Assembly (NCBI GenBank): GCA_965219085.1
Contig: OZ244720.1
Location: 2,304,001-2,368,000, forward strand
Length of the DNA stretch: 64,000 nt
From: Dehalococcoidia bacterium
GTDB taxonomy: Bacteria; Chloroflexota; Dehalococcoidia; UBA2979
Direction of reading: 5' to 3'
Under the pieces are notes generated by a model that was given only the letters and a program-made list of their open reading frames with translations, searched no databases and was not told the DNA's origin. A program made the translations under genes and the position numbers. Below, in pieces: positions 7,927 through 34,970 of this stretch (its first letter is position 1; every line of letters starts with the position of its first letter).

Positions 7927-11787
<3,861 letters not shown>

Positions 11788-19453: not shown

Positions 19454-22400
19454 TCAGCAACGACGCCGCGCGACACTCGGGCGGGCGCGCGTCCCGTGGT
19501 CGGCGGCGTCAGAAGCGGAGCGCGGCCTGCCGCGCCGCTCCCGGCGGCTGACGCTCGTCGTCAGACGGGCTGGGCAGTTCGTCGGCGGTGAAGAGCGCCG
19601 AGCCGCAGACTTCGTCGAGCAGCACCGCGCCCCCGGCTGGAGCCGCACCGTCTCCTCCAACACCCAGAGCAGTTCGAGCAGTTCGCCGGCGAACTCCCAG
19701 CGATCAGGGCGGATCTCGTCAAGGTCCGAAGACTTCCGGCCCGAGCGATCGCGCTTGCGCCGGTCCAGCCACGACTTGACGACGTGCAGACCGGAGACGG
19801 AGTAGTCATAGACCTCCGGGCTGACGGGCGCGAACTCGCCGTCGCCGACGCGCAGCACGCGCTCGGCCTCGTCGTAGGAGTGGCCCTCCGGCAGCGGCGT
19901 CGGAGGCACCTCCTTCGTGTTGCGGGCCTCGCCGTGCGGGACGCCCGGCGGGCGACCGGGGCCGATGAAGCGCTCGCCGTAGGTGTGGAGGTGCAACAAG
20001 CGCTCGCCGAGGTCGGCGACGCGCGCGAACAGCGCGCCGTCCTTTGTGATCGGAAGCCGCGGCGGCGGCTGCTCCAGCTCGTCCCAGAAGCGCTCGACAT
20101 ACGAGGGTTGGGCGAGGATGCCGTAGGCGTATACGAACAGGCGCTCCGCCGTGGGGGGCCGCCCGTGCGCCTCGCCGATGCGCTCAAGGAGGCTCCCGGT
20201 GACGTTGGGCTCTGTCGCGTCCGCGTCGCGGTACAGGGGAATGACGTCCTTCGCTCCGCGGCCGCAAAAGTGGTCGAGGTCCGGGATGGCAGCCGATGCG
20301 GTCGCCGCCGGACCTGTGCCGAGGACTTTGGTCAGTAAGCTAGTGACATAAACCTGTCGTTCGCTATGGGCGCGATGCAAGGCTGGGCGACAGAAGTCGC
20401 CCAGCCTTGCATCGCGCAAGATGTGCTGACGGTCCAAGGACCTGTAGGCGTACGGTGCTAGACCGGGCGGCGGTGAATCGCGACGAAGTGACGCGATGGA
20501 CGGTTCAGTACGGTCGCCCACGAGTGGTGGGTACTCGCGGCGAATCGTACGGTCCCGTGTCTCGCGGAATAGATCCGCTCGCCCATCCGTGGAGTGTTCG
20601 AGCAGTGCCCGCCACCGGTCTGTAAGCGCCTGTGGCGTCTCGGCTATCGGCCACGTTCGTTTGAACTGCATGCCCGAGTGCTGCCACGGGAAGACATCGA
20701 TGATCGCGGGCCAGTCGAAGTAGCCGCCGGGTTCGGCTGGCATGAACGGCGCATCCCACCCTTCCGCGCAGTCGCGCCAGTCGAGGTCGTCGAGCGATTC
20801 GGCGGCGTCGAGCGCGCCGAGCTTCTGCTGCTCGCTGCCGGTGAGCCGCACCCTGTGGATCTTCGCGGGCTCTGCAGGTTCGGGCTTGCCGTTGCGGACG
20901 CCGATGGCGATGGCGACGGGCGTTCGGATGGCGAAGACGTTCTCCGTCTTGCGCGCCCCGAGGCTGTCGCCCTCGAGATCGATGATCCACAACTCGTCGA
21001 ATACCTCGCGCATCTTACGGCGCATCCCGGCGAAGGCCGGGCCGCGCAGGTACGACGAGGCAGTGATGAACGTGACGATACCGGCGTCGTTCGTCGAATC
21101 GAGCACCTTCCAGAGCGCCCAGCGCCAGAAGTAGACGTAGTCGTTGTAGAGGTTCTTGAGGTGGACGCCGCCGCCAGCCTCGCGCACGGGGGCCAGGAAG
21201 TCCTCAAGCAGTGGGTCGGCGTCCTCGTCCTCGTCGCCGTAGCGTACCCATCCGCCTTTGCGGCGATCGGGGTCATCGTCCGGGCCGCGCTGCTCGCGGT
21301 CATACGGCGGATTGCCGAGGCAGACGAAGATGCGTGTCTCCCGCTTCACATCCCTCGCACGCTCGCGCTCGTCAGTGAGGGCCTTGTAGAGCACGCCTTC
21401 CGCCAGCCGCGACTGGACGTTCGGGGACTCCAGTGTGTCGGCGAGGTAGACGAGCGGGTTACGGTCGGTCACGCCCAGTTCGCGCAGCCGCTGGGTGAGG
21501 CGCAACTGTGCGACCGCGTAGGGCCCGACGAGGATCTCGAAGGCGTGCAGCCGCCCCGCCAGGTCGCGCAGCCGCCCCGGCACGCCGCCCTCGCCAAGCC
21601 GGTCGCGCGCCGCCTCCGCCGCGCGCTGGAGCACCGCGAGGGGGTACGTGCCCGTGCCGCAGGCCGGGTCGAGCACCTCGACGCCGTCGTCGGCGAACCC
21701 CATCGGCTTGTTGAAGCGGGTGCGCAGCAGCTCCTCCGCGAAGCGCACCTGCGCGCGCACGACCTCGACGGGCGTGAAGTAAACTCCTCGGTTCTTGCGC
21801 AGCTCCGCGTCGTACGCGCCAAGAAAGTGTTCGTAGAAATACAACCACGGGTCGCGGTCGATCTCCTCCGAGGGGTTGAATGCGCCTTGCCATCCGCGCC
21901 CGGCGAGCAAGGCGCGGGCCTCGACGACGCCGACGGCCCGCTCCAGCAGGTCGATCGGCATCGACAGCTCTTCGCGGGCCTCGCGGTTCTCCAGCAGGTC
22001 CAGGGCGGTCGCCAGCAGGTCGTGCTGCCGCTCCCGTAGCCGGTCCGAGGCGAGCGCCTGGCGGAGGTTCTCCGCGCCCTCGAAGCGCGCCAGCAGCAGC
22101 GCGTACGTCACCGTCTGAGCATAGGCGTCCGCGAATTGTGCCGCGTTCGCGTCCGCGAAGAGCACGCCGCGCCACTCGCCGGCGATCTGGCTGACCGCGC
22201 TGCCCTCGCGGTCGAGCGCCTCGTGCACCTCGTCGCGGAGCAGGCGGGCGAGCGGGGCGAGGAACTCGGCGAGCCCGCGCGCCGTTCGTGGCGTAATCGG
22301 CTCGTGCATCAGGAAGTCGCGCAGCAACCGTTCGAGCTTCGTCAGCGCCGCCGCGTTGAGGCCCATCGCGCCCTCAGCGCTCACGTCGTCGGCGATGCGC

Positions 22401-22801
22401 ACACGCTCGCCGACGGGCTCGCCGCTGCGGAACAGGCTCCACTCGGAGCCGTCGGTGTAGATCAGGTTGGGCAGCGCCTGGAATCGCACCCACTGCCGGT
22501 GATCGCGTCCGCGCAAGCGCTCCGGCCTCGCGCCGCGTCCCGGCGGCTTGAGTTCGACGTGGCCGCAAAGCAGGCCGTCGGCGGTGACGCCGAGGTCGGG
22601 CCGCCCGATGTGGCCCTCGGCGCGAGCCTCCGTGCGCGAGGCGACCTCGATGGCCCACGCGTCGCCGCAAGCGCGCAGTAACTCGCCGACGGGCGCCTTG
22701 AGCTGGTCCTCGGGTTGCGCCGTGACGGGCAGCGCGAAGTTCGCCGCTACGGCTGCAGCGAAGTCCCGGACGGCGTCCTCGAACGGCTGGCCGACTGTCA
22801 T
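19454..22801 (-). CDS. Type IIG/ISP-like fused restriction endonuclease-N6-adenine methyltransferase (probable frameshift near 19632; true stop probably at 19509)
   Basis: N-terminal PD...ELK nuclease motif; DPACGTG; NPPY; ISP-type C-terminal specificity domain; no helicase motifs seen. Confidence 0.85.
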   Translation of the reverse strand: MTVGQPFEDAVRDFAAAVAANFALPVTAQPEDQLKAPVGELLRACGDAWAIEVASRTEARAEGHIGRPDLGVTADGLLCGHVELKPPGRGARPERLRGRDHRQWVRFQALPNLIYTDGSEWSLFRSGEPVGERVRIADDVSAEGAMGLNAAALTKLERLLRDFLMHEPITPRTARGLAEFLAPLARLLRDEVHEALDREGSAVSQIAGEWRGVLFADANAAQFADAYAQTVTYALLLARFEGAENLRQALASDRLRERQHDLLATALDLLENREAREELSMPIDLLERAVGVVEARALLAGRGWQGAFNPSEEIDRDPWLYFYEHFLGAYDAELRKNRGVYFTPVEVVRAQVRFAEELLRTRFNKPMGFADDGVEVLDPACGTGTYPLAVLQRAAEAARDRLGEGGVPGRLRDLAGRLHAFEILVGPYAVAQLRLTQRLRELGVTDRNPLVYLADTLESPNVQSRLAEGVLYKALTDERERARDVKRETRIFVCLGNPPYDREQRGPDDDPDRRKGGWVRYGDEDEDADPLLEDFLAPVREAGGGVHLKNLYNDYVYFWRWALWKVLDSTNDAGIVTFITASSYLRGPAFAGMRRKMREVFDELWIIDLEGDSLGARKTENVFAIRTPVAIAIGVRNGKPEPAEPAKIHRVRLTGSEQQKLGALDAAESLDDLDWRDCAEGWDAPFMPAEPGGYFDWPAIIDVFPWQHSGMQFKRTWPIAETPQALTDRWRALLEHSTDGRADLFRETRDRTIRREYPPLVGDRTEPSIASLRRDSPPPGLAPYAYRSLDRQHILRDARLGDFCRPALHRAHSERQVYVTSLLTKVLGTGPAATASAAIPDLDHFCGRGAKDVIPLYRDADATEPNVTGSLLERIGEAHGRPPTAERLFVYAYGILAQPSYVERFWDELEQPPPRLPITKDGALFARVADLGERLLHLHTYGERFIGPGRPPGVPHGEARNTKEVPPTPLPEGHSYDEAERVLRVGDGEFAPVSPEVYDYSVSGLHVVKSWLDRRKRDRSGRKSSDLDEIRPDRWEFAGELLELLWVLEETVRLQPGARCCSTKSAARRSSPPTNCPARLTTSVSRRERRGRPRSASDAADHGTRARPSVARRRC

Positions 22802-24991: not shown

Positions 24992-25287
24992 GTGGATGTC
25001 GAGTTCCGCACGCGCCGACTTGAGCGCTGCTTCGAGCACCTCAACCTCGCCATACGGGAGTGGGGCCCGGAGGTAGGCCCGCGCTACGTCGAGCGCGTCA
25101 GGGCACTGTATCGGGCGCGCGGCTTCGAGTTCCTGTACGGATTCAGAGTGCTCGGGCTCCATCCCTCAGGGGCGATCGACGCGGTCAGTACGCGCTGCGA
25201 CTGACTGGCCGGGTGCGGCTGATCATCGAACGGGGAGACGACCCTGATACTGTGATCGTCGTCGAGGTGGTGGACTATCATGACTAG
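24992..25287 (+). pseudogene. higB: HigB/RelE-like toxin, copy 1 (frameshift near 25165)
   Basis: VDVEFRTRRLERC...GLHP, continuing in another frame as LRGDRRGQYALRLTGRVRLI...VEVVDYHD. Confidence 0.8.
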
Positions 25288-25594
25288 CGTGACAAGCACA
25301 GCACGGCGCCTGGTCGTCTCGGATGCCGTGATCCACCCCGGCGAGCTCCTCGCCGAGGAGCTTGAGGTACGCGGCATGACTCAGCGCGAGCTCGCGCTCG
25401 CGATGGGGCGGCCGCCGCAGCTCATCAGCGAGATCGTCCGTGGCCGTAGGGGTATCTCGGCGGAGACGGCGCTCCAGCTCGAGGCCACGCTCGGCACTGC
25501 GGCTCACATCTGGGTCGGGCTCGACGCCGACTACCGCCTCGCCCTCGCGCAGCAGCGGTCACGTAGCCGCCCCGACGCGTCGGGTCTAAGCTAG
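25280..25594 (+). CDS. higA: HigA family antitoxin, copy 1
   Basis: IHPGELLAEELE...MTQRELA...ISEIVRGRRGISAETA. Confidence 0.92.
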   Translation: MTSVTSTARRLVVSDAVIHPGELLAEELEVRGMTQRELALAMGRPPQLISEIVRGRRGISAETALQLEATLGTAAHIWVGLDADYRLALAQQRSRSRPDASGLS

Positions 25595-25679: not shown

Positions 25680-25977
25680 GTGGAGGTACGGTTCCGCACG
25701 CGAACGCCTCGAGCGGTGTGCCGGACACGTGGGAGCGGCGGTGCGCGCATGGGGCCCCGAGGTTGGTCCGCGCTACATCGAGCGGGTCCAGCTCCTCCAG
25801 GAGGTTCCGTCTGTGGAGACACTGTTCCGTTTCCGCGCGGTGGGCTTCCACCCCCTCCGTGCCGACCGTCGAGGACAGTTCGCTCTCCGGCTCACCGGTC
25901 GGATGCGGCTGATCATCGAGCGTGGGCCGGACGACCGCTCGCTGACGGTGGTCGAGGTGGTTGACTATCATGACTAG
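25680..25977 (+). pseudogene. higB: HigB/RelE-like toxin, copy 2 (extra base near 25703)
   Basis: VEVRFRTR, then a frameshift to RLERC...WGPEVGPRY...HPLRADRRGQFALRLTGRMRLI...DYHD. Confidence 0.8.
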
Positions 25978-26248
25978 CGTGACTCAGACAAAGATCGTTC
26001 CCGACATCGCGATCCCGCCAGGCGAACTCCTCGCCGAGGAGCTTGAGGCGCGCGGCATGACGCAGCGCGACCTCGCAACGCTCATGGGGCGCCCACCGAA
26101 GGTGATTAGCGAGATCGTCCGGGGCCGGAAGGCGATTACGCCGCGCACGGCCATCCAGATCGAGGAAGCTCTCGGTACACCCGCGAGCGTATGGGTCGGC
26201 CTTGAGGCGCAGTACCGCCTCGTGCTCGCCCGCCAAGAAGTCGCGTAG
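25970..26248 (+). CDS. higA: HigA family antitoxin, copy 2
   Basis: IPPGELLAEELE...MTQRDLA...ISEIVRGRKAIT. Confidence 0.92.
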   Translation: MTSVTQTKIVPDIAIPPGELLAEELEARGMTQRDLATLMGRPPKVISEIVRGRKAITPRTAIQIEEALGTPASVWVGLEAQYRLVLARQEVA

Positions 26249-27403: not shown

Positions 27404-28300
27404 CTACAGGAGCACGCGTTTCGTCGCGTCGCCCGGGCGGCGGCGGAAGTCCGTGAGCAGGTGTCGGCGCCGCCCCGACTCGTCGATGTGCTCCTCGAGC
27501 CGGCAGCGCTGGCCCTCGAGCAGGTGGACGTCGACCTCCCGCACGTGCGCGACGACCTCGTCGCGCAGCTCGCGCGAGGCCGGGAAGTGCCCGGCGGCGT
27601 GCATGGCGATGTGCAGCTGGCGCGTCCCGATGCGCAGCAGCCAGCCGAGCAGCAGCTCGGCCCAGCCGAGGTGGAACGCCTCGTCGCCGAAGATCAGCGG
27701 GTAGCGACGCTCGGACGCCTCGTTCGCCGTAAAGAGCGCCGTCGGCCCGAAGTTGGGGCGGCCGAGGTCGCTGGCGGCGCGGTAGATGGCGCGCAGGTGC
27801 TCGTCGCCGGCGATGGCCTCGCCGCCGAAGTAGTGCCCGAGCCCCACGTCCTCGGCGCGCGCCTGCTCGTGGCGGGCGTAGGCCTGGTGCGCCCACTCCA
27901 GGAACGACTCGATCTCCCCGGGCAGGGCGGACTGCGCGGCGACGTGCTCGATCGCCTGGCGGACGAGCGGGACGGCGCTCTGGTATGCGCCGCGCCGCAC
28001 CAGCGACGCGGCGTCCGAGGTGCATAGGAACGCCCGGCTCCACAGCGAGGCGAGCGCGGCCATCGTCATCGTGCGCGCGCTGGGCGTGTAGCCGCTGGCG
28101 GCGAAGCGCGCCTGCACGTCGAGGCCCGCTTCGAGCAGGCGCAGGTCGTCGCCGAGCACGAAGCCGGTCTGCCGCCACGCGTCCTCGGCGGCGTCGGAGA
28201 GCGCATCGGGCTTGCCGGGCAGCGTCCACGAGTCGGGGACGCGCATGCCGGAGACGCGCTGCGGAGCGCCGAGGGGCGAGAGGTCGCCGTTGAAGGTCAT
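27404..28300 (-). CDS. Hypothetical protein (about 298 aa)
   Basis: Host-like codon usage; ATG at 28300; no recognisable family. Confidence 0.65.
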   Translation of the reverse strand: MTFNGDLSPLGAPQRVSGMRVPDSWTLPGKPDALSDAAEDAWRQTGFVLGDDLRLLEAGLDVQARFAASGYTPSARTMTMAALASLWSRAFLCTSDAASLVRRGAYQSAVPLVRQAIEHVAAQSALPGEIESFLEWAHQAYARHEQARAEDVGLGHYFGGEAIAGDEHLRAIYRAASDLGRPNFGPTALFTANEASERRYPLIFGDEAFHLGWAELLLGWLLRIGTRQLHIAMHAAGHFPASRELRDEVVAHVREVDVHLLEGQRCRLEEHIDESGRRRHLLTDFRRRPGDATKRVLL

Positions 28301-28327
28301 GCCCTCATTCTGGCCGATCGGACAGCT

Positions 28328-28375
28328 GCGGGGCAGGTTCTCGGTGTGCGTGCATGGTGGGTCCGAGGTGTACTC
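28328..28375 (-). repeat. Duplicate of the helicase 3' region (matches 30701-30748)
   Basis: 44/48 nt identical, all four mismatches synonymous; both copies encode EYTSDPPCTHTENLPR. Confidence 0.93.
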
Positions 28376-28474
28376 GCTGATGGCGCAGGCGCCCCCGCCC
28401 ATGCCATGATGTCCTGCGGACGGAGAGCCAGCAGCGAGTGTCGAGTGAACGTCATGGCGCTGCCAAGAGCTATC

Positions 28475-28550
28475 TGGTGCCGGGGGCCGGGCTTGAACCG
28501 GCGACGCGCGGTTTTCAAGACCGCCGCTCTACCCACTGAGCTACCCCGGC
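28475..28550 (-). tRNA. tRNA with anticodon TGA (nominally Ser) on a short-variable-loop Thr/Phe-like body
   Basis: GCCGGGG-TA-GCTC AGTGGGTA GAGC-G-GCGGT CTTGAAA ACCGC-GCGTC-GCCGG TTCAAGC CCGGC-CCCCGGC-A-CCA; 76 nt, all stems paired. Confidence 0.9.
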
Positions 28551-28565
28551 TTCGGTAGGCGGTGC

Positions 28566-28600
28566 GAGGCGGGCTCCTCTTTACACGGCGAGCCCGCCTC
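28566..28600. terminator. 11-bp inverted repeat between the hypothetical gene and the odd tRNA
   Basis: GAGGCGGGCTC...GAGCCCGCCTC; no clear U-tract. Confidence 0.45.
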
Positions 28601-28611
28601 CACCGAATCCG

Positions 28612-29058
28612 CTAGAATGGTAGGTCGTCCACCTCCGGCTTCTTAAATTGGTACAGCGCTGGCTCTTCCTCACCGACACGCTCGATGCTGGCATGGCCTT
28701 GGAGCACCGCGTTGAGCGTCCGCAGCGGCACATTCAGGTGGGCGTCCCGCAGCGTGGTCGCGATTGTGGCGCGTGTGAGTGGCTTTCCAGCTTCGAGGAG
28801 GACTTCCACGATTGCCTTGGCGGGATCCGCTCGTACGAACCGGAATTCGCCGGTGGCGCCGGTCCCGGGTGGCCACCCTGCGATGCGGTGCGGTCCGCCC
28901 CCGAGTCGCTCCCACGCAGCGTCTCTGAGGGCTGCGTACTTGATGGCGGCCACATTGAAATTGATCCGGGCCTGACTCAACTGCGTATTCGCGTCAGCCA
29001 ATTGTTCTTCGGCGTCTGCGATGGATCGGAGAATTGCATCTGTGTAGTCGTCGTTCAC
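28612..29058 (-). CDS. Hypothetical coiled-coil plus winged-HTH protein (accessory, lower GC)
   Basis: N-terminal heptads; AIVEVLLEAGKPLTRATI HTH-like motif; C-terminal DDLPF. Confidence 0.55.
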   Translation of the reverse strand: MNDDYTDAILRSIADAEEQLADANTQLSQARINFNVAAIKYAALRDAAWERLGGGPHRIAGWPPGTGATGEFRFVRADPAKAIVEVLLEAGKPLTRATIATTLRDAHLNVPLRTLNAVLQGHASIERVGEEEPALYQFKKPEVDDLPF

Positions 29059-29288
29059 TCGTATACACCTCTCTGAGAGATCGAGTATATGACGGATGTC
29101 AACCACCGATCTATCTAATATCGCTAGTGGGTTACGAATGATGGAACAGAGTGCTCTTGTGCTGCGCGTACGTCCCCACAGAAGCCGCGCGCCATGTGGG
29201 GCACTGCTGGTAGATCCTGTCCCTCCGGTGCCCCAGTGCATCGGGCCGTGGGAGCGAGCGGTCTAGCCCCGAACGGGGCTGAACTCAG

Positions 29289-30652
29289 GGTCACGTCCCT
29301 GCAAGTGGTGTAACAGTGCACCATCCTGATCATTTGCTAGCTGGCGGTCTGCAGTAGCACCTCCTCGCCTGAGGCGACCTCGGCCACGGCCGCCGGCAGC
29401 GGCTGCAGCATCGTCATGTAGCGCCGCCCCTCCGCCCACTCGTCGTGCTGCTCGGCGAGCACGGCGCCGACCAGCCGCACGACGGCGGCACGGTTGGGGA
29501 AGATGCCGACCACGTTGGTGCGCCGCCGGATCTCCTTGTTGAGGCGTTCCAGCGGGTTGTTCGACCAGACCTGCCGCCAGTGGACCGGGAAGGCCGTAAA
29601 CGCCAGGATCTCCGGCCCGGCGTCGGCGAGCAGCGCCGCGGCCTCGGGGAAGCGCTCGGCGAGCTGCTCCACCACGCGGGCGTGTTGGGCCTGCACCTCG
29701 GCCGCCGAGGACTGCTCGTAGATCGTCCGCACCGTCGTCGCCACCAGCTTCTCGGCGCTCTTCGGCACCCGGGTCAGCAGGTTGCGCATGAAGTGCGTGC
29801 GGCAGCGCTGCCAGGAGGCGCCGGCGAAGACCGTCGCGATCGCCTCCCTGAGGCCCTGGTGCGCGTCCGAGGTGACGAGCTCGACGCCGGACAGGCCGCG
29901 CGCCACGAGCCCGCGCAGGAAGCTCAGCCAGAACGCCCCGTCCTCGGAGGTGCCGACGTCGATGCCCAGCAGCTCGCGCTTGCCGGAGGCGTTGACGGCG
30001 GTGGCGACGACCACGGCCACCTGCACGACGCGGCCCTCCTCGCGCACGAGCTGGGTGAGCGCGTCGAGCCAGAGGTAGCGGTAGGGGCCCGAGTCGAGGG
30101 GCCGCTCGAGGAAGCTCGAGACGACCTCGTCGAGTTCAGCGCAGATGCGCGAGACCTGGCTCTTGGAGATGCCGTCGCAGCCGAGCGAGCGCACGAGGTC
30201 GTCGACGCGACGGGTCGAGACGCCCTCGACGTAGGCCTGCGTGACCACGGAGACCAGGGCGCGCTCCGAGCGCCGCCGCGGCTCGAGCAGCGAGGGGAAG
30301 TAGCTGCCCTCGCGCAGCTTCGGGATGCCCAGTTCGATCGTGCCCACACGCGTGTCCCAGCGCCGCGGCCGGTAGCCGTTGCGCCGGGTCAGGCGCGTCT
30401 CGCTGCGCTCGCCGTGGGCGGCGCCGATCTGCTCGGAGACCTCGGCGTCCATCACCGCCTGGGCGAGCACCGCGACCGCCTCGCGCAGAAAGTCGAGGTC
30501 CGCTCCGTCCGCCTGCTTGCGCAGCAGTTCCAACAAGTCCACGCTCTCCTTGACCACAGTCGTCCTCCTCCACGTGACTCTTCTTCTTGTGAAGGATGGC
30601 GCTGTGGTCTCCTACGTCTACCTCCTGTGACACCACTTCCTGGGACGCTACT
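29289..30652 (-). mobile_element. IS256-family insertion sequence
   Basis: Imperfect terminal IRs (GTCACGTCCCTGCAAGTGGTGTAACA / GTAGCGTCCCAGGAAGTGGTGTCACA); flanking direct repeat GAACTCAG at 29281-29288 and 30653-30660, extendable to 10 bp. Confidence 0.9.
29337..30557 (-). CDS. IS256 family transposase
   Basis: RNGYR; GVSTRRV; LDAL; SDAHQGL; WQRCRTH; NNPLERLNKEIRRR. Confidence 0.96.
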   Translation of the reverse strand: MVKESVDLLELLRKQADGADLDFLREAVAVLAQAVMDAEVSEQIGAAHGERSETRLTRRNGYRPRRWDTRVGTIELGIPKLREGSYFPSLLEPRRRSERALVSVVTQAYVEGVSTRRVDDLVRSLGCDGISKSQVSRICAELDEVVSSFLERPLDSGPYRYLWLDALTQLVREEGRVVQVAVVVATAVNASGKRELLGIDVGTSEDGAFWLSFLRGLVARGLSGVELVTSDAHQGLREAIATVFAGASWQRCRTHFMRNLLTRVPKSAEKLVATTVRTIYEQSSAAEVQAQHARVVEQLAERFPEAAALLADAGPEILAFTAFPVHWRQVWSNNPLERLNKEIRRRTNVVGIFPNRAAVVRLVGAVLAEQHDEWAEGRRYMTMLQPLPAAVAEVASGEEVLLQTAS

Positions 30653-30676: not shown

Positions 30677-33532
30677 TCACGCTCTGACGTACGCCGATCG
30701 GCGCGGCAGGTTCTCGGTGTGCGTGCACGGCGGATCCGAGGTGTACTCGGTGCACCCAAGGAACTGGCCGTAGCGCCCGTACCGCGTGACCAGCACGCCG
30801 ACGCCGCACGTCCGGCACACCGTCGGCGGGCGGGCGCACGAGGCGTTGGTGCACCTCGCGCGGCCGTCGGCGGGGATGGCGTAGCCGGCGTTGCAGTTGG
30901 CGCACCTCGGGGCGAGGTGCCTGCACATCGGGTGGTTCGAGCAGCGCAGGTTCCTGCCGCTCTGCGAGGCGACCAACTTGCCGCCGAGACACCGAGGGCA
31001 CTCGGGCGCGTCGTCTCCGGGGAGCTCGCCGAGCTGGCGCAGATCGGCGCCGTCGCGCCGTAGCTCGGTGACGAACGCCGACGGAAGCTGCGGGTCGGTG
31101 ACGAGGTAGGCGCCGCGCCGCGCGCGCGTCATCGCGACGTAGAACAGGCGGCGCTCCTCGGCGTGCGGGAACCCCGTCGCCGCGCCCGAGGGGAGCACGA
31201 GGTCCAGCAGCGGGTCGTCCTCGACCTGTGACGGGAAGCCGCGACGCTCGTTCTTGAGGTCGAGCACCACGGCGTAGTCGGCCTCGCGGCCCTTCGCGCG
31301 GTGCACGGTGCTGAACTCGACGCGGAGAGGCGCGACGCCCGCCGGGGGGCGCGCGCTGTTCCGGTAGCGGCCGAGGACGAGCACGGAGGGCGAGTCGTGG
31401 CGGTCGGCCGCGGCGCGCTCCTTGATGTCCTGCAGCGCGCGCCAGAGGCCGCGGCCGGGATCGCCGTCGGCGACGATGGTGACACCGTCGTCGCGGTTCT
31501 CGCGAGCCGACCGCAGCGGGCGCTGCGTCTGCGCGGGGTTGCGCTGCACGAAGGCCGTCGAGGGCCGGAGGATGCCGTCGGCGAAGCGGAAGGTCTGGCT
31601 GAGCGTGCGCTGCCGCACGTGGCCGAGGTAGTCGCCGCAGTTGCGCACCAGCCCCACGTCGCTCCCGGCGAAGCGGTAGATCGACTGCCAGTCGTCGCCG
31701 ACGAGGAAGTACGCGGTGTCCGGCCCCTTCAGCGCTTCGATCAGTCGCATCCGTCCCGCGGAGATGTCCTGGAACTCGTCGACGAGGATGTGGCGGTACG
31801 ACGCCCGCCACGCACCCTCGCGTATGAGCGCGGCGGCGCGGTTGATGAGGTCGTGGAAGTCGACCGCGTTCTCCTCGGCGAGCATCGCCTCGTAGCGCTC
31901 GCGCACCTGCTCGAAGACGGCGAGGAAGCTCTCGCTGCGCCGCCGGTCCGAGGAGGCGCGGGCGCGCTCGCGCAACTCGGCGGGCGAGGCGCCGCTGGTC
32001 TTCACGTGGTGGAGGAACGTGGTGAGCAGGCGCGCCAGCCACGAGATCAGCCAGCGGCCGAGCCGTGCGATGACGGAGCGCATCGGGATCGGCTCGAACG
32101 CGACGCCCGCCGCCTCGAGCTGCTGCTGCAGCACGTCGCGGAGCACGCCATTGCGATGCTGCCAGCTGTACGTCTCGATGAGTCGCGTTCCGAGTTCCGC
32201 GTGGATGCGGCGCTTCCATTCGACCCCCTCGGTGTAGCGCTTCCACGTCGGGGGCGGCCGGCCGTTCTCGTCGAGCGCGAAGTGCTCGATGTAGATGTCG
32301 TGGGCAGGGAGGTAGAAGTCCGGCCGGTACTGGCTGTACTCCTGGGTCGCCGTCCGCTCCGGGAACTGCTGCTCGTAGCGGAACGCGACGCCGTGCAGGG
32401 TCAGGAAGTTCGCGATCTCCAGCTCCTCGACGCTCTTCACGAGGTCGCCGCTGAGCGTGCGCAACTCCGAGTTGCGCACGTACTCGTAGTACTCGCCGGC
32501 GCTATTGAAGCTGAACGGTGACCGGTACGGCGCGCGGTGATGCGCGACGAAGTCCGTGACGACGCCCGACTGCCGCGGGTCGCCCAGGAGGTCCCGGAGC
32601 GCCTCGTCGACGGCGCGTTGGAAGGCCGCGTCGTCCTGAGCGAGCCGGGAGATGGTCGGGGCCACGCTGGTGTCGGCGATGACGCGGCGGCCGAAGGCGT
32701 GGAACGTGAACACGTTGGTCGCCTTGAGGTCGGCGGGGAGCCGCTGGCGCACCTCTGCCGCGGCGGCGGCGTTGAACGCCAGCACGAGGATCTCGTCGGG
32801 TGGCACGCCCTCGTTGCGCACGAGGTGCGCGACCTTGCCGATGATTACCGCGGTCTTGCCCGTGCCGGCGCCCGCGAGGACGAGCGTGGCGTCCTCGTCG
32901 GTCGCGATGGCGAGCGCCTGCTCGTCGGTGAGCGCGACGCGGAGCGCCGTGCGGGCGGCGGCCTGCACGGCTGGGACTCGCTCCGCCGCGAAGCGCTCGT
33001 TCGCACGCTCGCGCGCGGCCTCGAACGCCCCGGCGGGTTCGAGCGGCGCGAGCCGGCGGAGGGCGTCGGCGGCGTGCGGCGGCAAGTGGTCGCGTGCGAA
33101 CGCCCCGTGGCACTCCCGCACCACCGAGGCGAGCTCCTCGTCGAGCGTGCCGACCGCGGATCGACGCGCGTAGCGGCCGCCGTCGAGGAACCGACGCAGC
33201 GCGGTGTCGACCCGCACCAACTCGGGACCGACGGTCGAGGCGCGGTGGGCGGCCGCCGCGCGCGCGGCTTCGACCACCGCCAGGGCCGACGGCTCATCGA
33301 GGCCCCCGATCGTGTGCCGGGCGCCGTCGGCGGTGCGGATCGTGAGCCTGTGCCAGAACCAGGAGCGGCGCACCTCGATCGCGTCGACAGAGCCGACGGG
33401 GATCGCCGTCGGGGTGCTCGCACCTGCGTTGACGCGCAGGGTCTCGCTGCTGATCGAGATGGCCGAGGGGCCGGGCTGCCAGAGGCGATAGAGCGAGGCA
33501 CTGCGGGCGCTCGCGCGTGGAGTCATTTCCAT
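30677..33532 (-). CDS. UvrD/HelD (helicase IV-like) SF1 helicase with inserted nuclease-like domain and C-terminal zinc ribbons
   Basis: AGAGTGKT; DEFQD; GDDWQSIYRF; STVHRAKGRE; EERRLFYVAMTRA; KS..E..IANFL and YRPDFYL...IEHF; CxxC repeats. Confidence 0.9.
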   Translation of the reverse strand: MEMTPRASARSASLYRLWQPGPSAISISSETLRVNAGASTPTAIPVGSVDAIEVRRSWFWHRLTIRTADGARHTIGGLDEPSALAVVEAARAAAAHRASTVGPELVRVDTALRRFLDGGRYARRSAVGTLDEELASVVRECHGAFARDHLPPHAADALRRLAPLEPAGAFEAARERANERFAAERVPAVQAAARTALRVALTDEQALAIATDEDATLVLAGAGTGKTAVIIGKVAHLVRNEGVPPDEILVLAFNAAAAAEVRQRLPADLKATNVFTFHAFGRRVIADTSVAPTISRLAQDDAAFQRAVDEALRDLLGDPRQSGVVTDFVAHHRAPYRSPFSFNSAGEYYEYVRNSELRTLSGDLVKSVEELEIANFLTLHGVAFRYEQQFPERTATQEYSQYRPDFYLPAHDIYIEHFALDENGRPPPTWKRYTEGVEWKRRIHAELGTRLIETYSWQHRNGVLRDVLQQQLEAAGVAFEPIPMRSVIARLGRWLISWLARLLTTFLHHVKTSGASPAELRERARASSDRRRSESFLAVFEQVRERYEAMLAEENAVDFHDLINRAAALIREGAWRASYRHILVDEFQDISAGRMRLIEALKGPDTAYFLVGDDWQSIYRFAGSDVGLVRNCGDYLGHVRQRTLSQTFRFADGILRPSTAFVQRNPAQTQRPLRSARENRDDGVTIVADGDPGRGLWRALQDIKERAAADRHDSPSVLVLGRYRNSARPPAGVAPLRVEFSTVHRAKGREADYAVVLDLKNERRGFPSQVEDDPLLDLVLPSGAATGFPHAEERRLFYVAMTRARRGAYLVTDPQLPSAFVTELRRDGADLRQLGELPGDDAPECPRCLGGKLVASQSGRNLRCSNHPMCRHLAPRCANCNAGYAIPADGRARCTNASCARPPTVCRTCGVGVLVTRYGRYGQFLGCTEYTSDPPCTHTENLPRRSAYVRA

Positions 33533-33638
33533 GCGCGTGATTATTCCAGAGATCGCGCATGTGATTGAGTGCCGACCGCACGACACACGGCCCCGGGGCG
33601 CGGGGGCCTCGGGCTGCTCGGGAGACGGGAGCGAGGCG

Positions 33639-34970
<1,332 letters not shown>

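What the first reader, a model, noticed from the sequence alone, without database searches (positions are those of the whole stretch)
28475..28550. Intact class-I tRNA with a serine (UGA) anticodon: candidate mistranslating tRNA
Seen: a 76-nt cloverleaf with all four stems fully paired, encoded CCA, anticodon loop CU-UGA-AA, a 5-nt variable loop, G1-C72/C2-G71 and discriminator A73. Established: bacterial tRNA-Ser has a long variable arm (the main SerRS determinant) and G73, so this RNA should not be serylated. The body resembles tRNA-Thr(UGU), whose loop CUUGUAA is one base away, or tRNA-Phe. It lies in the accessory segment bounded by helicase-tail repeats. Inference: it could insert a non-Ser residue at UCA/UCG codons, serve as an anticodon-nuclease decoy or uncharged regulator, or be a recent mutant.
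Basis: partly seen in the sequence, partly recalled or inferred. Interest (0 to 1): 0.8.

Follow-up and report, generated by a model that had tools for sequence, protein, structure and literature searches.

The report
Mismatched tRNA paired with regulator gene
An intact extra tRNA that carries a serine anticodon on a phenylalanine-type body belongs to a rare, horizontally acquired two-gene unit (a small DNA-binding protein followed by a tRNA) that recurs in Chloroflexota with tRNAs whose anticodons do not fit their bodies, so it may be a natural device for deliberate misreading of the genetic code.

Summary
Window 28475-28550 (minus strand) encodes a perfect 76-nt class-I cloverleaf with anticodon UGA, A73 and an encoded CCA. 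It is extra to the genome's canonical Ser(UGA), Thr(UGU) and Phe(GAA) genes. Its body is closest to tRNA-Phe, not tRNA-Thr. It is not a lone mutant. It lies 61 nt downstream of a 148-aa gene (P0001), whose product is predicted to be an antiparallel coiled-coil dimer with a winged helix, ending in the same tip as the host SSB (DDLPF). I obtained DNA for 16 distinct P0001-family loci. In 10 of them a hairpin and then a tRNA follow the gene on the same strand, all with A73 and 7-nt anticodon loops. Their anticodons (UGA, CCA, UGG, CUC, UUG, UAA, GUC, UGU) are uncoupled from the tRNA body; five types even have the wrong structural class. One such tRNA is conserved between two genera, and differs only in its loops, while the flanking genes are 78% identical. 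The module is compositionally foreign in this genome and was not found in 98 family relatives. Best reading: a regulated dual-identity tRNA. Charging, expression and decoding are untested. Closest known: allo-tRNAs and tRNAProX.

The parts
28475..28550 (-). 76-nt class-I tRNA, anticodon UGA, tRNA-Phe-type body, A73, encoded CCA
   Evidence: nearest relatives are tRNA-Phe
28561..28605 (-). strong hairpin between the P0001 stop codon and the tRNA (about 16 pairs; the intergenic 61 nt fold at -38.5 kcal/mol)
   Evidence: a hairpin lies at the same place in the other module loci
28612..29058 (-). P0001: 148-aa protein (GTG start at 29058 behind GAGAGG). Long N-terminal helix (residues 2-52) plus winged helix (79-138), C-terminal tip VDDLPF
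   Evidence: GC3 70.5% against 93-98% for neighbouring genes
29059..29316 (-). upstream region of P0001 (58% GC). It holds TTGACA inside the palindrome-like GTGGTTGACAT 48 nt before the start, but no -10 box at the usual spacing
29317..30622 (-). IS256/Mutator-family insertion sequence (transposase 29337-30557), multi-copy in the genome, inserted between the helicase and P0001
   Evidence: PF00872, E 4e-132; short-read contigs break at 29316 and 30623; 8 further full-length copies at 94-100% identity and one partial at 84% in the genome
28328..28379 (.). direct repeat, copy 1: a remnant of the helicase 3' end in front of ORF P0002
30701..30752 (.). direct repeat, copy 2: the true 3' end of the UvrD-type helicase gene
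30677..33670 (-). UvrD/GajB-like helicase with C-terminal zinc ribbons. Itself variable among relatives: absent at this site in G007 and G003, present in G008

Best explanation
The feature is a genuine, structurally intact, supernumerary tRNA gene. It has a tRNA-Phe-type body whose anticodon arm reads UGA. It is the RNA gene of a small, horizontally acquired two-gene module, laid out as follows: a sigma-70-type promoter with palindromic operator-like sites (seen in the relatives), then P0001, then a strong hairpin, then the tRNA. P0001 is a dimeric winged-helix protein that ends in an SSB C-terminal-tip mimic. The module recurs sporadically in Chloroflexota. Its tRNA always keeps a full cloverleaf, a 7-nt anticodon loop and A73, but its anticodon is uncoupled from its body. 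Inferred mechanism: the tRNA is co-transcribed with P0001 by read-through of the hairpin and released by RNase P. P0001 autorepression and the hairpin keep it low or conditional. When made, it acts on the ribosome as a dual-identity tRNA that reads UCA (and by wobble UCG) with a non-serine residue. Phe is the best guess and Thr the second. Shown: the anatomy, the linkage, conservation of a sister tRNA, foreign origin, and the supernumerary status. Inferred: transcription, charging and decoding.
For: Intact cloverleaf, 69.2 bits. Canonical Ser(UGA), Thr(UGU) and Phe(GAA) exist elsewhere in the genome.
Linkage. Of 16 distinct loci with a P0001 relative for which DNA was obtained, 10 have a tRNA 24-61 nt after the stop codon on the same strand, with a hairpin between. 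All 10 have A73, and all 7 class-I ones have 20-21 of 21 stem pairs.
The anticodons are UGA, CCA (two different bodies), UGG, CUC, UUG, UAA (two genera), GUC and UGU. Five types have the wrong structural class: class I with Ser or Leu anticodons, and class II with Trp, Asp or Thr anticodons.
The hosts keep canonical genes. Class-II Leu(UAA) is present in G367, G894 and G400, and canonical Trp is present in G049.
Purifying selection. Between G367 and G894 the tRNA is 94.6% identical (70/74) and all 4 changes lie in the D, variable or T loops, whereas the P0001 gene is 77.8% and the downstream IS 76.9% identical. Between G049 and G1030 the same scaffold shows a compensatory 51-63 swap but carries a different anticodon.
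The G367/G894 tRNA carries G3.U70 and A73, and the G337 tRNA is 79% identical to its host's Leu(CAA). These are bodies whose synthetases ignore the anticodon (recalled knowledge).
P0001. The model has pLDDT 92.5 and shows a helix plus a winged helix. A homodimer is predicted at ipSAE 0.83 against a best control of 0.01; this mark was reached by 20 of 30 solved homodimers and 1 of 23 solved monomers; the runs agree in at least 96% of contacts and pLDDT is at least 89.
A TTGACA-N16-18-TAnnnT promoter with a TGT..ACA palindrome over the -35 is present in 8 of 10 module loci, and 3 have a second palindrome after the -10.
Foreign origin. P0001 GC3 is 70.5% against 93-98% for its neighbours. No full-length match was found in 98 other genomes of the family (one weak partial hit, G168, not examined).
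Against: No RNA data: no RNA run was listed, so expression is unknown. In this genome the P0001 promoter lacks a recognisable -10 at the usual spacing, so this copy may be silent.
Compared with Phe tRNAs the tRNA has lost G34 and A35. It also differs at 45, 59 and 60 from the E. coli Phe identity set (recalled), so PheRS may charge it poorly or not at all.
Most module anticodons read common codons. UCG is 17.4 per 1000 codons here, so efficient misreading would be very toxic.
The number of class mismatches (5 of 9 types) is about what random assignment of anticodons to bodies would give (my estimate: 3.7 expected). It therefore shows uncoupling, not design.
Between G049 and G1030 the anticodon loop changes faster than the rest (4 of 7 positions against 6 of about 67). 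That also fits relaxed constraint.
Two members have C33 instead of U33.
P0001's SSB-tip mimic points to DNA metabolism, not translation.
P0001 does not clearly avoid the partner's codons: 0 UCA/UCG here, but 4 UUG in G367.
Confidence: 0.45

Rival explanations
1. The tRNA is not used for decoding. It is a tRNA-shaped element that serves the module, for example as an RNase P/RNase Z processing and stability signal for the P0001 transcript, as an RNA partner of P0001, or as a structured DNA site. Its fold is under selection but its anticodon is free to drift.
For: The anticodon varies among otherwise similar scaffolds: G049 against G1030, and G367 against G400, where the D and anticodon arms differ but the acceptor and T arms are alike. 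The class mismatches are no more frequent than random assignment would give (my estimate). C33 occurs in 2 of 10. P0001 has an SSB-tip mimic and a generic nucleic-acid-binding winged helix. The hairpin plus tRNA lie at a fixed distance from the stop codon.
Against: All 10 keep a 7-nt loop with C32 and A37. Nine keep A38 and 8 keep U33. The loops equal the canonical loops for their anticodons: CUUAAAA as in the hosts' Leu(UAA), and CUCCAAA as in the hosts' Trp. Nine of 9 types carry sense anticodons. G3.U70 is kept in both UAA copies. CCA is encoded in most.
Confidence: 0.25
2. In this genome the module is a decaying, silent passenger. The family may be functional elsewhere, but this copy does nothing because it was recently acquired and has a damaged promoter and an IS next door.
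For: No -10 box at the usual spacing; the distance from TTGACA to the start is about 45 nt, against 49-84 nt in the other loci. IS256 lies 258 nt upstream. The copy sits in a variable slot that differs in G003, G007 and G008. No full-length P0001 match was found in 98 other genomes of the family.
Against: P0001 is full length with all family-conserved residues and the DDLPF tip. The tRNA has 21 of 21 stem pairs. The hairpin is intact. Promoters of this GC-rich lineage may not fit the E. coli consensus.
Confidence: 0.15
3. The tRNA is made but cannot be charged. It works as a permanently deacylated tRNA: either a codon-specific trigger of the stringent response, or a decoy for an anticodon nuclease or other tRNA-targeting toxin.
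For: The body/anticodon mismatch removes anticodon-dependent recognition by both PheRS and SerRS (plus recalled identity rules). The neighbourhood holds defence-type genes: a Type IIG/ISP restriction enzyme, a GajB-like helicase and two HTH_3 genes.
Against: Sister modules use Leu-like and G3.U70 bodies that should be charged whatever the anticodon. Other module loci sit among housekeeping genes, not in defence islands. No nuclease gene is linked.
Confidence: 0.12
4. It is a recent point mutant of one of the genome's own Thr or Phe genes, or an assembly error.
For: CUUGAAA is one base from the Thr loop CUUGUAA.
Against: Identity to the genome's own Phe is only 54-59 of 76, and to its own Thr(CGU) 56-58 of 76. 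Separate Thr(UGU) and Phe(GAA) genes exist. Short-read contigs agree with the assembly. The tRNA is linked to a conserved protein family.
Confidence: 0.03

Closest known systems
allo-tRNAs (Mukai et al. 2017, PMC5389517; review PMC7609411; passages read)
   Same: Natural bacterial tRNAs whose anticodons (35 of 64 reported) do not match their aminoacylation identity. Some carry G3:U70. They are found near transposable elements and toxin-antitoxin genes. Some insert the 'wrong' amino acid in E. coli and others are inactive.
   Different: allo-tRNAs have an 8/4 or 9/3 acceptor/T geometry, a long variable arm and mostly Ser identity, and are reported from Clostridia, Proteobacteria and Acidobacteria. 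The tRNAs here are ordinary 7/5 cloverleaves of several body types (Phe-, Leu- and Ala-like and others) in Chloroflexota, and are tied to one conserved protein gene. The allo-tRNA figures and supplements showing their gene neighbours could not be seen.
tRNAProX with ProRSx of Streptomyces/Kitasatospora (Schuntermann et al. 2023, PMC10404621, abstract and outline read; review PMC11415595, passages read)
   Same: Dual-identity tRNAs (Pro body with Ala, Asn or Thr anticodons) encoded next to a dedicated protein gene. They mistranslate when expressed and are patchily distributed.
   Different: There the partner is a synthetase isoform and the body is always Pro. Here the partner is a small winged-helix protein with an SSB-tip mimic, no synthetase gene is nearby, and the bodies vary.
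Type II toxin-antitoxin operons (general knowledge, recalled)
   Same: An upstream gene for a dimeric DNA-binding autorepressor with palindromes over its promoter, a potentially toxic product encoded downstream, a small mobile unit and a patchy distribution.
   Different: The downstream product is a tRNA, not a protein. No neutralising contact is known. This is a resemblance only.
Engineered mistranslating tRNAs that read UCA/UCG as another residue to block phages and gene transfer (recalled; related preprint PMC13596443 seen only in a search listing)
   Same: A tRNA with a UGA-type anticodon that would insert a non-Ser residue at UCR codons.
   Different: The engineered hosts have no UCR codons. 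This host uses UCG at 17.4 per 1000 codons.

Membership tests
canonical bacterial tRNA-Ser | long variable arm (class II) | tested here: not met
   5-nt variable loop GCGUC; the genome's real Ser(UGA) is 90 nt long
canonical bacterial tRNA-Ser | discriminator G73 | tested here: not met
   A73; the four canonical Ser tRNAs of the genome have G73
tRNA-Phe | anticodon GAA | tested here: not met
   UGA; against 8 Phe tRNAs the differences are G34U, A35G and a 31-39 A-U to U-A swap
tRNA-Phe | body (acceptor stem, D arm, A73) like that of Phe tRNAs | tested here: met
   Of 11 best-hit loci examined, 8 are Phe(GAA) and 3 Met. 84% identity to the Phe of G028, with an identical acceptor stem. Within the own genome the margin is small: Met 74%, Thr 74%, Phe 70-79%
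tRNA-Phe | tertiary identity nucleotides U45, U59, U60 (E. coli set, recalled) | tested here: not met
   C45, G59, C60; whether this host's PheRS needs them is unknown
tRNA-Thr(UGU) | G35 and U36, G1-C72, C2-G71 (E. coli set, recalled) | tested here: not met
   G35, G1-C72 and C2-G71 are present but position 36 is A; the host's own Thr tRNAs have U73, not A73
allo-tRNA | 12-bp acceptor branch arranged 8/4 or 9/3 | tested here: not met
   7/5 arrangement
allo-tRNA | anticodon unrelated to aminoacylation identity | tested here: met
   Ser anticodon on a non-Ser body
tRNAProX/ProRSx | tRNA-Pro body and a neighbouring ProRS isoform | tested here: not met
   Phe-type body; no synthetase domain in the 10 neighbouring proteins scanned
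P0001-tRNA module (defined in this report) | P0001-family gene, then a hairpin, then a tRNA with A73 on the same strand within about 60 nt | tested here: met
   61 nt, hairpin -38.5 kcal/mol, A73; the same layout holds in 9 other distinct loci
P0001-tRNA module (defined in this report) | sigma-70-type promoter with a TGT..ACA palindrome over the -35 | tested here: inconclusive
   Present in 8 of 10 loci. Here only TTGACA within GTGGTTGACAT is found, without a -10
winged-helix DNA-binding regulators (for P0001) | winged-helix fold | tested here: met
   pLDDT 92.5; VIA Z 9.8, rmsd 1.9 over 65 residues to 7vwv_A, and many Fur/PadR/MarR/forkhead domains at Z 8-9.5; Foldseek E 5.6e-3 at best. A shared fold shows no function
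SSB C-terminal tip motif (for P0001) | acidic residues followed by [LI]PF at the C-terminus, as in the host SSB | tested here: met
   P0001 ends EVDDLPF and the host's main SSB ends EPDDLPF. 78 of 178 family proteins in hand end in [DE][DE][LIVMF]P[FLWY] within the last 8 residues. Binding to SSB partners is not testable here

The most novel reading that the evidence does not exclude
The P0001-tRNA unit is a toxin-antitoxin-like or abortive-infection switch whose effector is an RNA: a dual-identity tRNA that corrupts the proteome. P0001 would be both repressor and sensor. Its SSB-tip mimic would report the state of the SSB interactome, for example replication stress or phage proteins that bind SSB tails. 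When P0001 is titrated away, the strong promoter would fire and read through the hairpin into the tRNA.
Probability: 0.2. Interest if true: 0.92.

Novelty: new variant of a known kind. Interest (0 to 1): 0.8.

Why it matters
Natural tRNAs that deliberately break the codon-amino-acid rule are known from only a few systems (allo-tRNAs, tRNAProX, the Candida Ser/Leu tRNA). This finding adds ordinary-looking 7/5 tRNAs of several body types in Chloroflexota. More importantly, it ties them to one conserved, unannotated protein family: at least 377 representative sequences, no Pfam domain, a predicted dimeric winged helix, and an SSB-tip mimic. That linkage gives a handle for finding many more such tRNAs and a testable regulatory circuit. 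It also bears directly on the open question of whether bacteria use mistranslation on purpose, for stress tolerance, addiction of mobile elements or defence.

Tried and rejected
Thr origin. The host's Thr tRNAs have U73 and are no closer than Phe, so this is not favoured.

Anticodon-arm graft from tRNA-Ser(UGA). The arm is 15 of 17 identical to the host's Ser(UGA), but equally close to the host's Trp and Tyr arms, which share the stem GCGGU/ACCGC. It is therefore not diagnostic.

'+1 shifted anticodon' idea (GAA, GUA or CAA sitting at positions 35-37). It fits G000, L066 and L059 but not the other members. I dropped it as a general rule.

Integration-site (att) reading. No integrase was found in any flank scanned, P0001 lies 5' of the tRNA, and no flanking direct repeats were found in the 6 other loci searched. 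Only G000 has the 52-nt repeat, and it exists only twice in the genome.

Census of class-I UGA tRNAs by pattern. There were 19 loci in 185,579 species genomes and 14 in viral contigs. ARAGORN calls a tRNA(tga) at 9 of the 19 and 8 of the 14. The rest are intron-containing or broken tRNA-like pieces. None of the 33 loci encodes a P0001 relative in the flanks held.

Viral contigs. There is no P0001 relative among them: 24 pattern matches, 0 confirmed.

Fused or longer forms of P0001. None was found (weak evidence). The weak hit in G885 is the coiled coil of MutS2. G887 has the same size and score and I assume it is the same. Both were dropped from the counts, as was the weak partial hit in G168, which was not examined.

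PHROGs and PADLOC gave nothing for P0001 or P0002. Pfam gave nothing either.

Codon avoidance in P0001 genes is not decisive.

The simple promoter/terminator scan of 28300-29400 found no sites.

No RNA holder was listed for the stretch, so nothing can be said on expression. Runs X5 and X6 hold only small parts of the stretch.

The class-II module tRNAs (L079, L066) had no close canonical relative in the 5 genomes searched. Their 'Tyr- or Leu-like' label rests only on the long variable arm plus A73.

Literature searches found no description of this protein-tRNA module. They cover only the held open-access library.

As a result the DNA context of most family members could not be read, including the closest one (P0030, 72% identical).

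Full report
THE OBSERVATION. Window 28475-28550, minus strand, encodes a 76-nt tRNA. ARAGORN calls it Ser(tga) and the Rfam tRNA model scores 69.2 bits. All 21 stem pairs are standard. The anticodon loop is CUUGAAA and the variable loop is 5 nt (GCGUC). It has G1-C72, C2-G71, A73 and an encoded CCA. Logan contigs of a run that holds the organism cover 27674-29316 without a difference. A second sample has 6 differences over 28050-29316 whose places I could not all see. The first run may be the source sample. The genome is 3.306 Mb in one contig at 69.8% GC. It has a separate canonical 90-nt Ser(UGA) with G73, plus Thr(UGU), Phe(GAA) and a tRNA-Sec. The tRNA is therefore real, intact and extra.

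WHICH BODY. A search of 40 relatives found no orthologue. The best hits were 84% identity (G028) and 78-80% in eight more genomes. In the 18 same-genus genomes the best hits were only 75-79%. Of 11 best-hit loci examined, 8 are tRNA-Phe(GAA) and 3 are tRNA-Met. Aligned with 8 Phe tRNAs, the query differs mainly in the anticodon arm: A31-U39 becomes U31-A39, with G34U and A35G. Its acceptor stem is identical to that of the Phe tRNA of G028. Within its own genome the margin is small: with the anticodon loop masked, Met is 74%, Thr(CGU) 74% and Phe 70%, or 79% for Phe if the anticodon stem is masked too. The host's Thr tRNAs have U73. I call the body Phe-type, and foreign to this genome.

THE SURROUNDINGS. 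The tRNA lies in a slot that varies among congeners. G007 and G003 have about 1150 bp of unrelated DNA between the homologues of window 28347 and 33639. G008 has the helicase, but 508 bp where this genome has the tRNA, P0001 and an IS. The slot is bounded by a 52-nt direct repeat of the helicase 3' end (28328-28379 and 30701-30752, 90% identical), which occurs only twice in the genome. An IS256-family element (29317-30622) is one of at least 9 full-length copies. Nearby are a Type IIG/ISP restriction enzyme, the GajB-like UvrD helicase and two HTH_3 genes.

THE KEY FINDING. The ORF just upstream of the tRNA on the same strand is a real gene (P0001). Its true start is the GTG at 29058, behind GAGAGG, giving 148 aa. 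It has relatives in 5 of 400 other genomes sampled from the class and in 1 of 400 sampled from the phylum. In the order around G367, 4 of 202 genomes have real matches, after dropping two MutS2 coiled-coil hits. In the order around G337, 5 of 93 have matches. None of 98 other genomes of its own family has a full match. Four metagenome loci carry relatives and no viral contig does. Source names and the Atlas place the family in Chloroflexota/Dehalococcoidia. That the window's genome is Dehalococcoidia in the GTDB sense is my inference.

A full HMMER scan finds 377 representatives at E <= 1e-3, and 105 at E <= 1e-30, among 1.84 billion proteins. All are about 145-200 aa and none has a Pfam domain.

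THE LINKED tRNAs. DNA was obtained for 16 distinct loci. One further metagenome locus, L067, repeats the tRNA, the intergenic spacer and the protein tail of G049. Ten of the 16 have a tRNA 24-61 nt after the stop codon on the same strand, with a hairpin (-14 to -38 kcal/mol) in between. The ten are:
- G000: class I, Phe-type body, anticodon UGA.
- G337: class II, 79% identical to its host's Leu(CAA), anticodon CCA.
- G049: class I, U1-A72, anticodon CCA.
- G1030: the same scaffold as G049, but anticodon UGG and C33.
- G1045: U1-A72, anticodon CUC.
- G400: anticodon UUG and C33.
- G367 and G894: class I, G3.U70, anticodon UAA.
- G926: class II, anticodon GUC.
- Metagenome L066: class II, anticodon UGU.

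All ten have A73. The seven class-I ones have 20-21 of 21 stem pairs. The six loci without a tRNA (G183, G514, G1064, G1054, L068, L069) mostly also lack the family's C-terminal tip. By my estimate, a tRNA starting in so narrow a window by chance has a probability of about 2e-4 per locus.

These tRNAs are extra to the canonical ones. Class-II Leu(UAA) is present in G367, G894 and G400, and a canonical Trp in G049.

SELECTION. Between G367 and G894, which belong to different genera, the tRNA is 70/74 identical and all four changes lie in the D, variable and T loops. The P0001 gene is 77.8% and the downstream IS 76.9% identical. Between G049 and G1030 the scaffold keeps pairing through a 51-63 A-U to U-A swap, yet the anticodon loop differs at four positions. 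Between the congeners G367 and G400 the acceptor and T arms are alike but the D and anticodon arms are different. So the fold is maintained and the anticodon-bearing half turns over.

All ten loops are 7 nt with C32 and A37. Nine have A38 and eight have U33. Where compared, the loops equal the canonical loop of the isotype that the anticodon names. Five of nine types have the wrong structural class. By my estimate random assignment would give about 3.7, so the data show uncoupling of anticodon and body, not a designed mismatch.

THE PROTEIN. The AlphaFold model (pLDDT 92.5) has a 50-residue N-terminal helix and a winged helix at residues 79-138. Fold searches give only generic winged-helix matches: VIA Z 9.8, rmsd 1.9, 65 residues, with many Fur, PadR, MarR, forkhead and Z-alpha domains at Z 8-9.5, and Foldseek E 5.6e-3 at best.

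Two copies are predicted to pair antiparallel along the helix. The ipSAE is 0.83 against a best control of 0.01. This mark was reached by 20 of 30 solved homodimers and 1 of 23 solved monomers. The runs share at least 96% of contacts and pLDDT is at least 89. The model supports pairing but does not show it.

The protein ends EVDDLPF. The host's main SSB ends EPDDLPF. Of 178 family proteins in hand, 78 end in [DE][DE][LIVMF]P[FLWY]. That this tip binds SSB partner proteins is recalled knowledge and was not tested.

Upstream of the gene, 8 of 10 module loci have TTGACA-N16-18-TAnnnT with a TGT..ACA palindrome over the -35, and three have a second palindrome after the -10. This is the layout of an autorepressed operon. 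In G000 only the -35 with its palindrome is recognisable.

P0001 is compositionally foreign here: GC3 is 70.5% against 93-98% for its neighbours.

HOW IT MOST LIKELY WORKS. Shown: a conserved gene-hairpin-tRNA unit, with tRNAs that are structurally sound, supernumerary and uncoupled in anticodon. Inferred: the tRNA is transcribed from the P0001 promoter through the hairpin and cut out by RNase P. P0001 limits its level. The tRNA then decodes the codon named by its anticodon with the amino acid dictated by its body.

For the G3.U70 and Leu-like members, charging should not depend on the anticodon (recalled identity rules). For the G000 tRNA, PheRS has lost two of three anticodon contacts, while ThrRS gains G35 next to G1-C72 and C2-G71. 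I therefore rank Phe first, then Thr, then uncharged.

Against efficient misreading: UCG is the commonest Ser codon here (17.4 per 1000; UCA is 2.0 per 1000). So the tRNA must be weak, rare or conditional. The hairpin, the C33 variants elsewhere and the repressor layout fit that.

The rivals remain open: a non-decoding tRNA-shaped element, a silent copy in this genome, or an uncharged decoy or trigger. No RNA data were available.

COMPARISON WITH WHAT IS KNOWN. allo-tRNAs share the uncoupled anticodons, the occasional G3:U70 and the company of transposons and TA genes. But they have 8/4 or 9/3 geometry, long arms and other host phyla (PMC5389517 and PMC7609411, passages read). tRNAProX share the idea of a dual-identity tRNA next to a dedicated protein, but that protein is a ProRS isoform (PMC10404621, abstract and outline; PMC11415595, passages). 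Six literature searches found nothing on a winged-helix/SSB-tip protein linked to such tRNAs. The searches cover only the held library, and the figures and supplements of the allo-tRNA paper could not be seen.

VERDICT. This is a new variant of a known kind. Interest is high because the protein linkage makes the phenomenon searchable and testable. The mechanism remains inferred.

Noticed in passing
window 11217-11313 (+): ARAGORN reports a 97-nt 'tRNA-???' with a 4-base anticodon (gtgg). Rfam finds no tRNA there at the gathering score. Probably a false call; a similar one lies elsewhere in the genome.
   Followed up: no
window 25163-25548 and 25853-26229: Two tandem, diverged copies (72-90% identical pieces, 681-690 nt apart) of a small gene pair. 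The second gene of each is an HTH_3 (XRE/HigA-like) protein. Possibly duplicated toxin-antitoxin-type cassettes.
   Followed up: partly
window 27404-28402 (-) and 30677-33670 (-): ORF P0002 (332 aa, no Pfam, PHROG or PADLOC match) begins with 16 residues identical to the helicase C-terminus (EYTSDPPCTHTENLPR). Relatives G007, G003 and G008 keep a shorter remnant of about 27 nt of the same helicase tail in front of their P0002 genes, even where no helicase is present. The slot looks like a recombination hot spot.
   Followed up: partly
window 19454-22801 (-): Large Type IIG/ISP restriction-methylase (PADLOC REase_MTase_IIG, 1110 bits), next to ffh and close to two ordinary tRNAs, Arg-CCU and Ala-CGC.
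   Followed up: no
L029, L041, L043, L045, L050, L053 (Xenophilus genome and viral contigs): A group of near-identical tRNA-like sequences whose D arm, anticodon arm and variable loop almost equal the window's tRNA: GGCGGTCTTGAAATCCGCGCGTC, against ...AAAACC... in the window. Their 3' acceptor strand does not pair. They look like prophage attachment-site relics. The likeness of the anticodon arms is unexplained.
   Followed up: no
L035:373-449 (Chloroflexi MAG) and L023 (Dehalococcoidia MAG): Two further class-I tRNAs with UGA anticodons in the same phylum. L035 has a perfect Phe-type acceptor stem, but a C31.A39 mismatch and two G.U pairs in the anticodon stem. No P0001 relative lies in the short flanks held.
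   Followed up: partly
L062, L063, L078, L079 (family f14 genomes): The same DDE_Tnp_1 (IS4/IS5-type) transposase element starts 15-22 nt after the module tRNA in all four genomes, although the tRNAs differ (UAA, UUG, GUC). Either the IS targets this spot, or the protein gene, tRNA and IS travel together.
   Followed up: partly
L062:1972-1999 vs L078 hairpin: The loop of the intergenic hairpin is inverted between G367 and G894 (TGTCAG against CTGACA) while the stem is unchanged.
   Followed up: no
G000:C1:724794-725632 and 2621591-2622439: Besides the main SSB, the genome has four more SSB-domain ORFs in two tandem pairs, all ending ADDQPF.
   Followed up: no
L066:362-397: Two tandem 18-nt AT-rich palindromes (ATGTTTTAATATTAACAT / ATATATTAATATTAAAAT) lie just upstream of the promoter of the P0001 homologue. 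Possibly extra operators.
   Followed up: no
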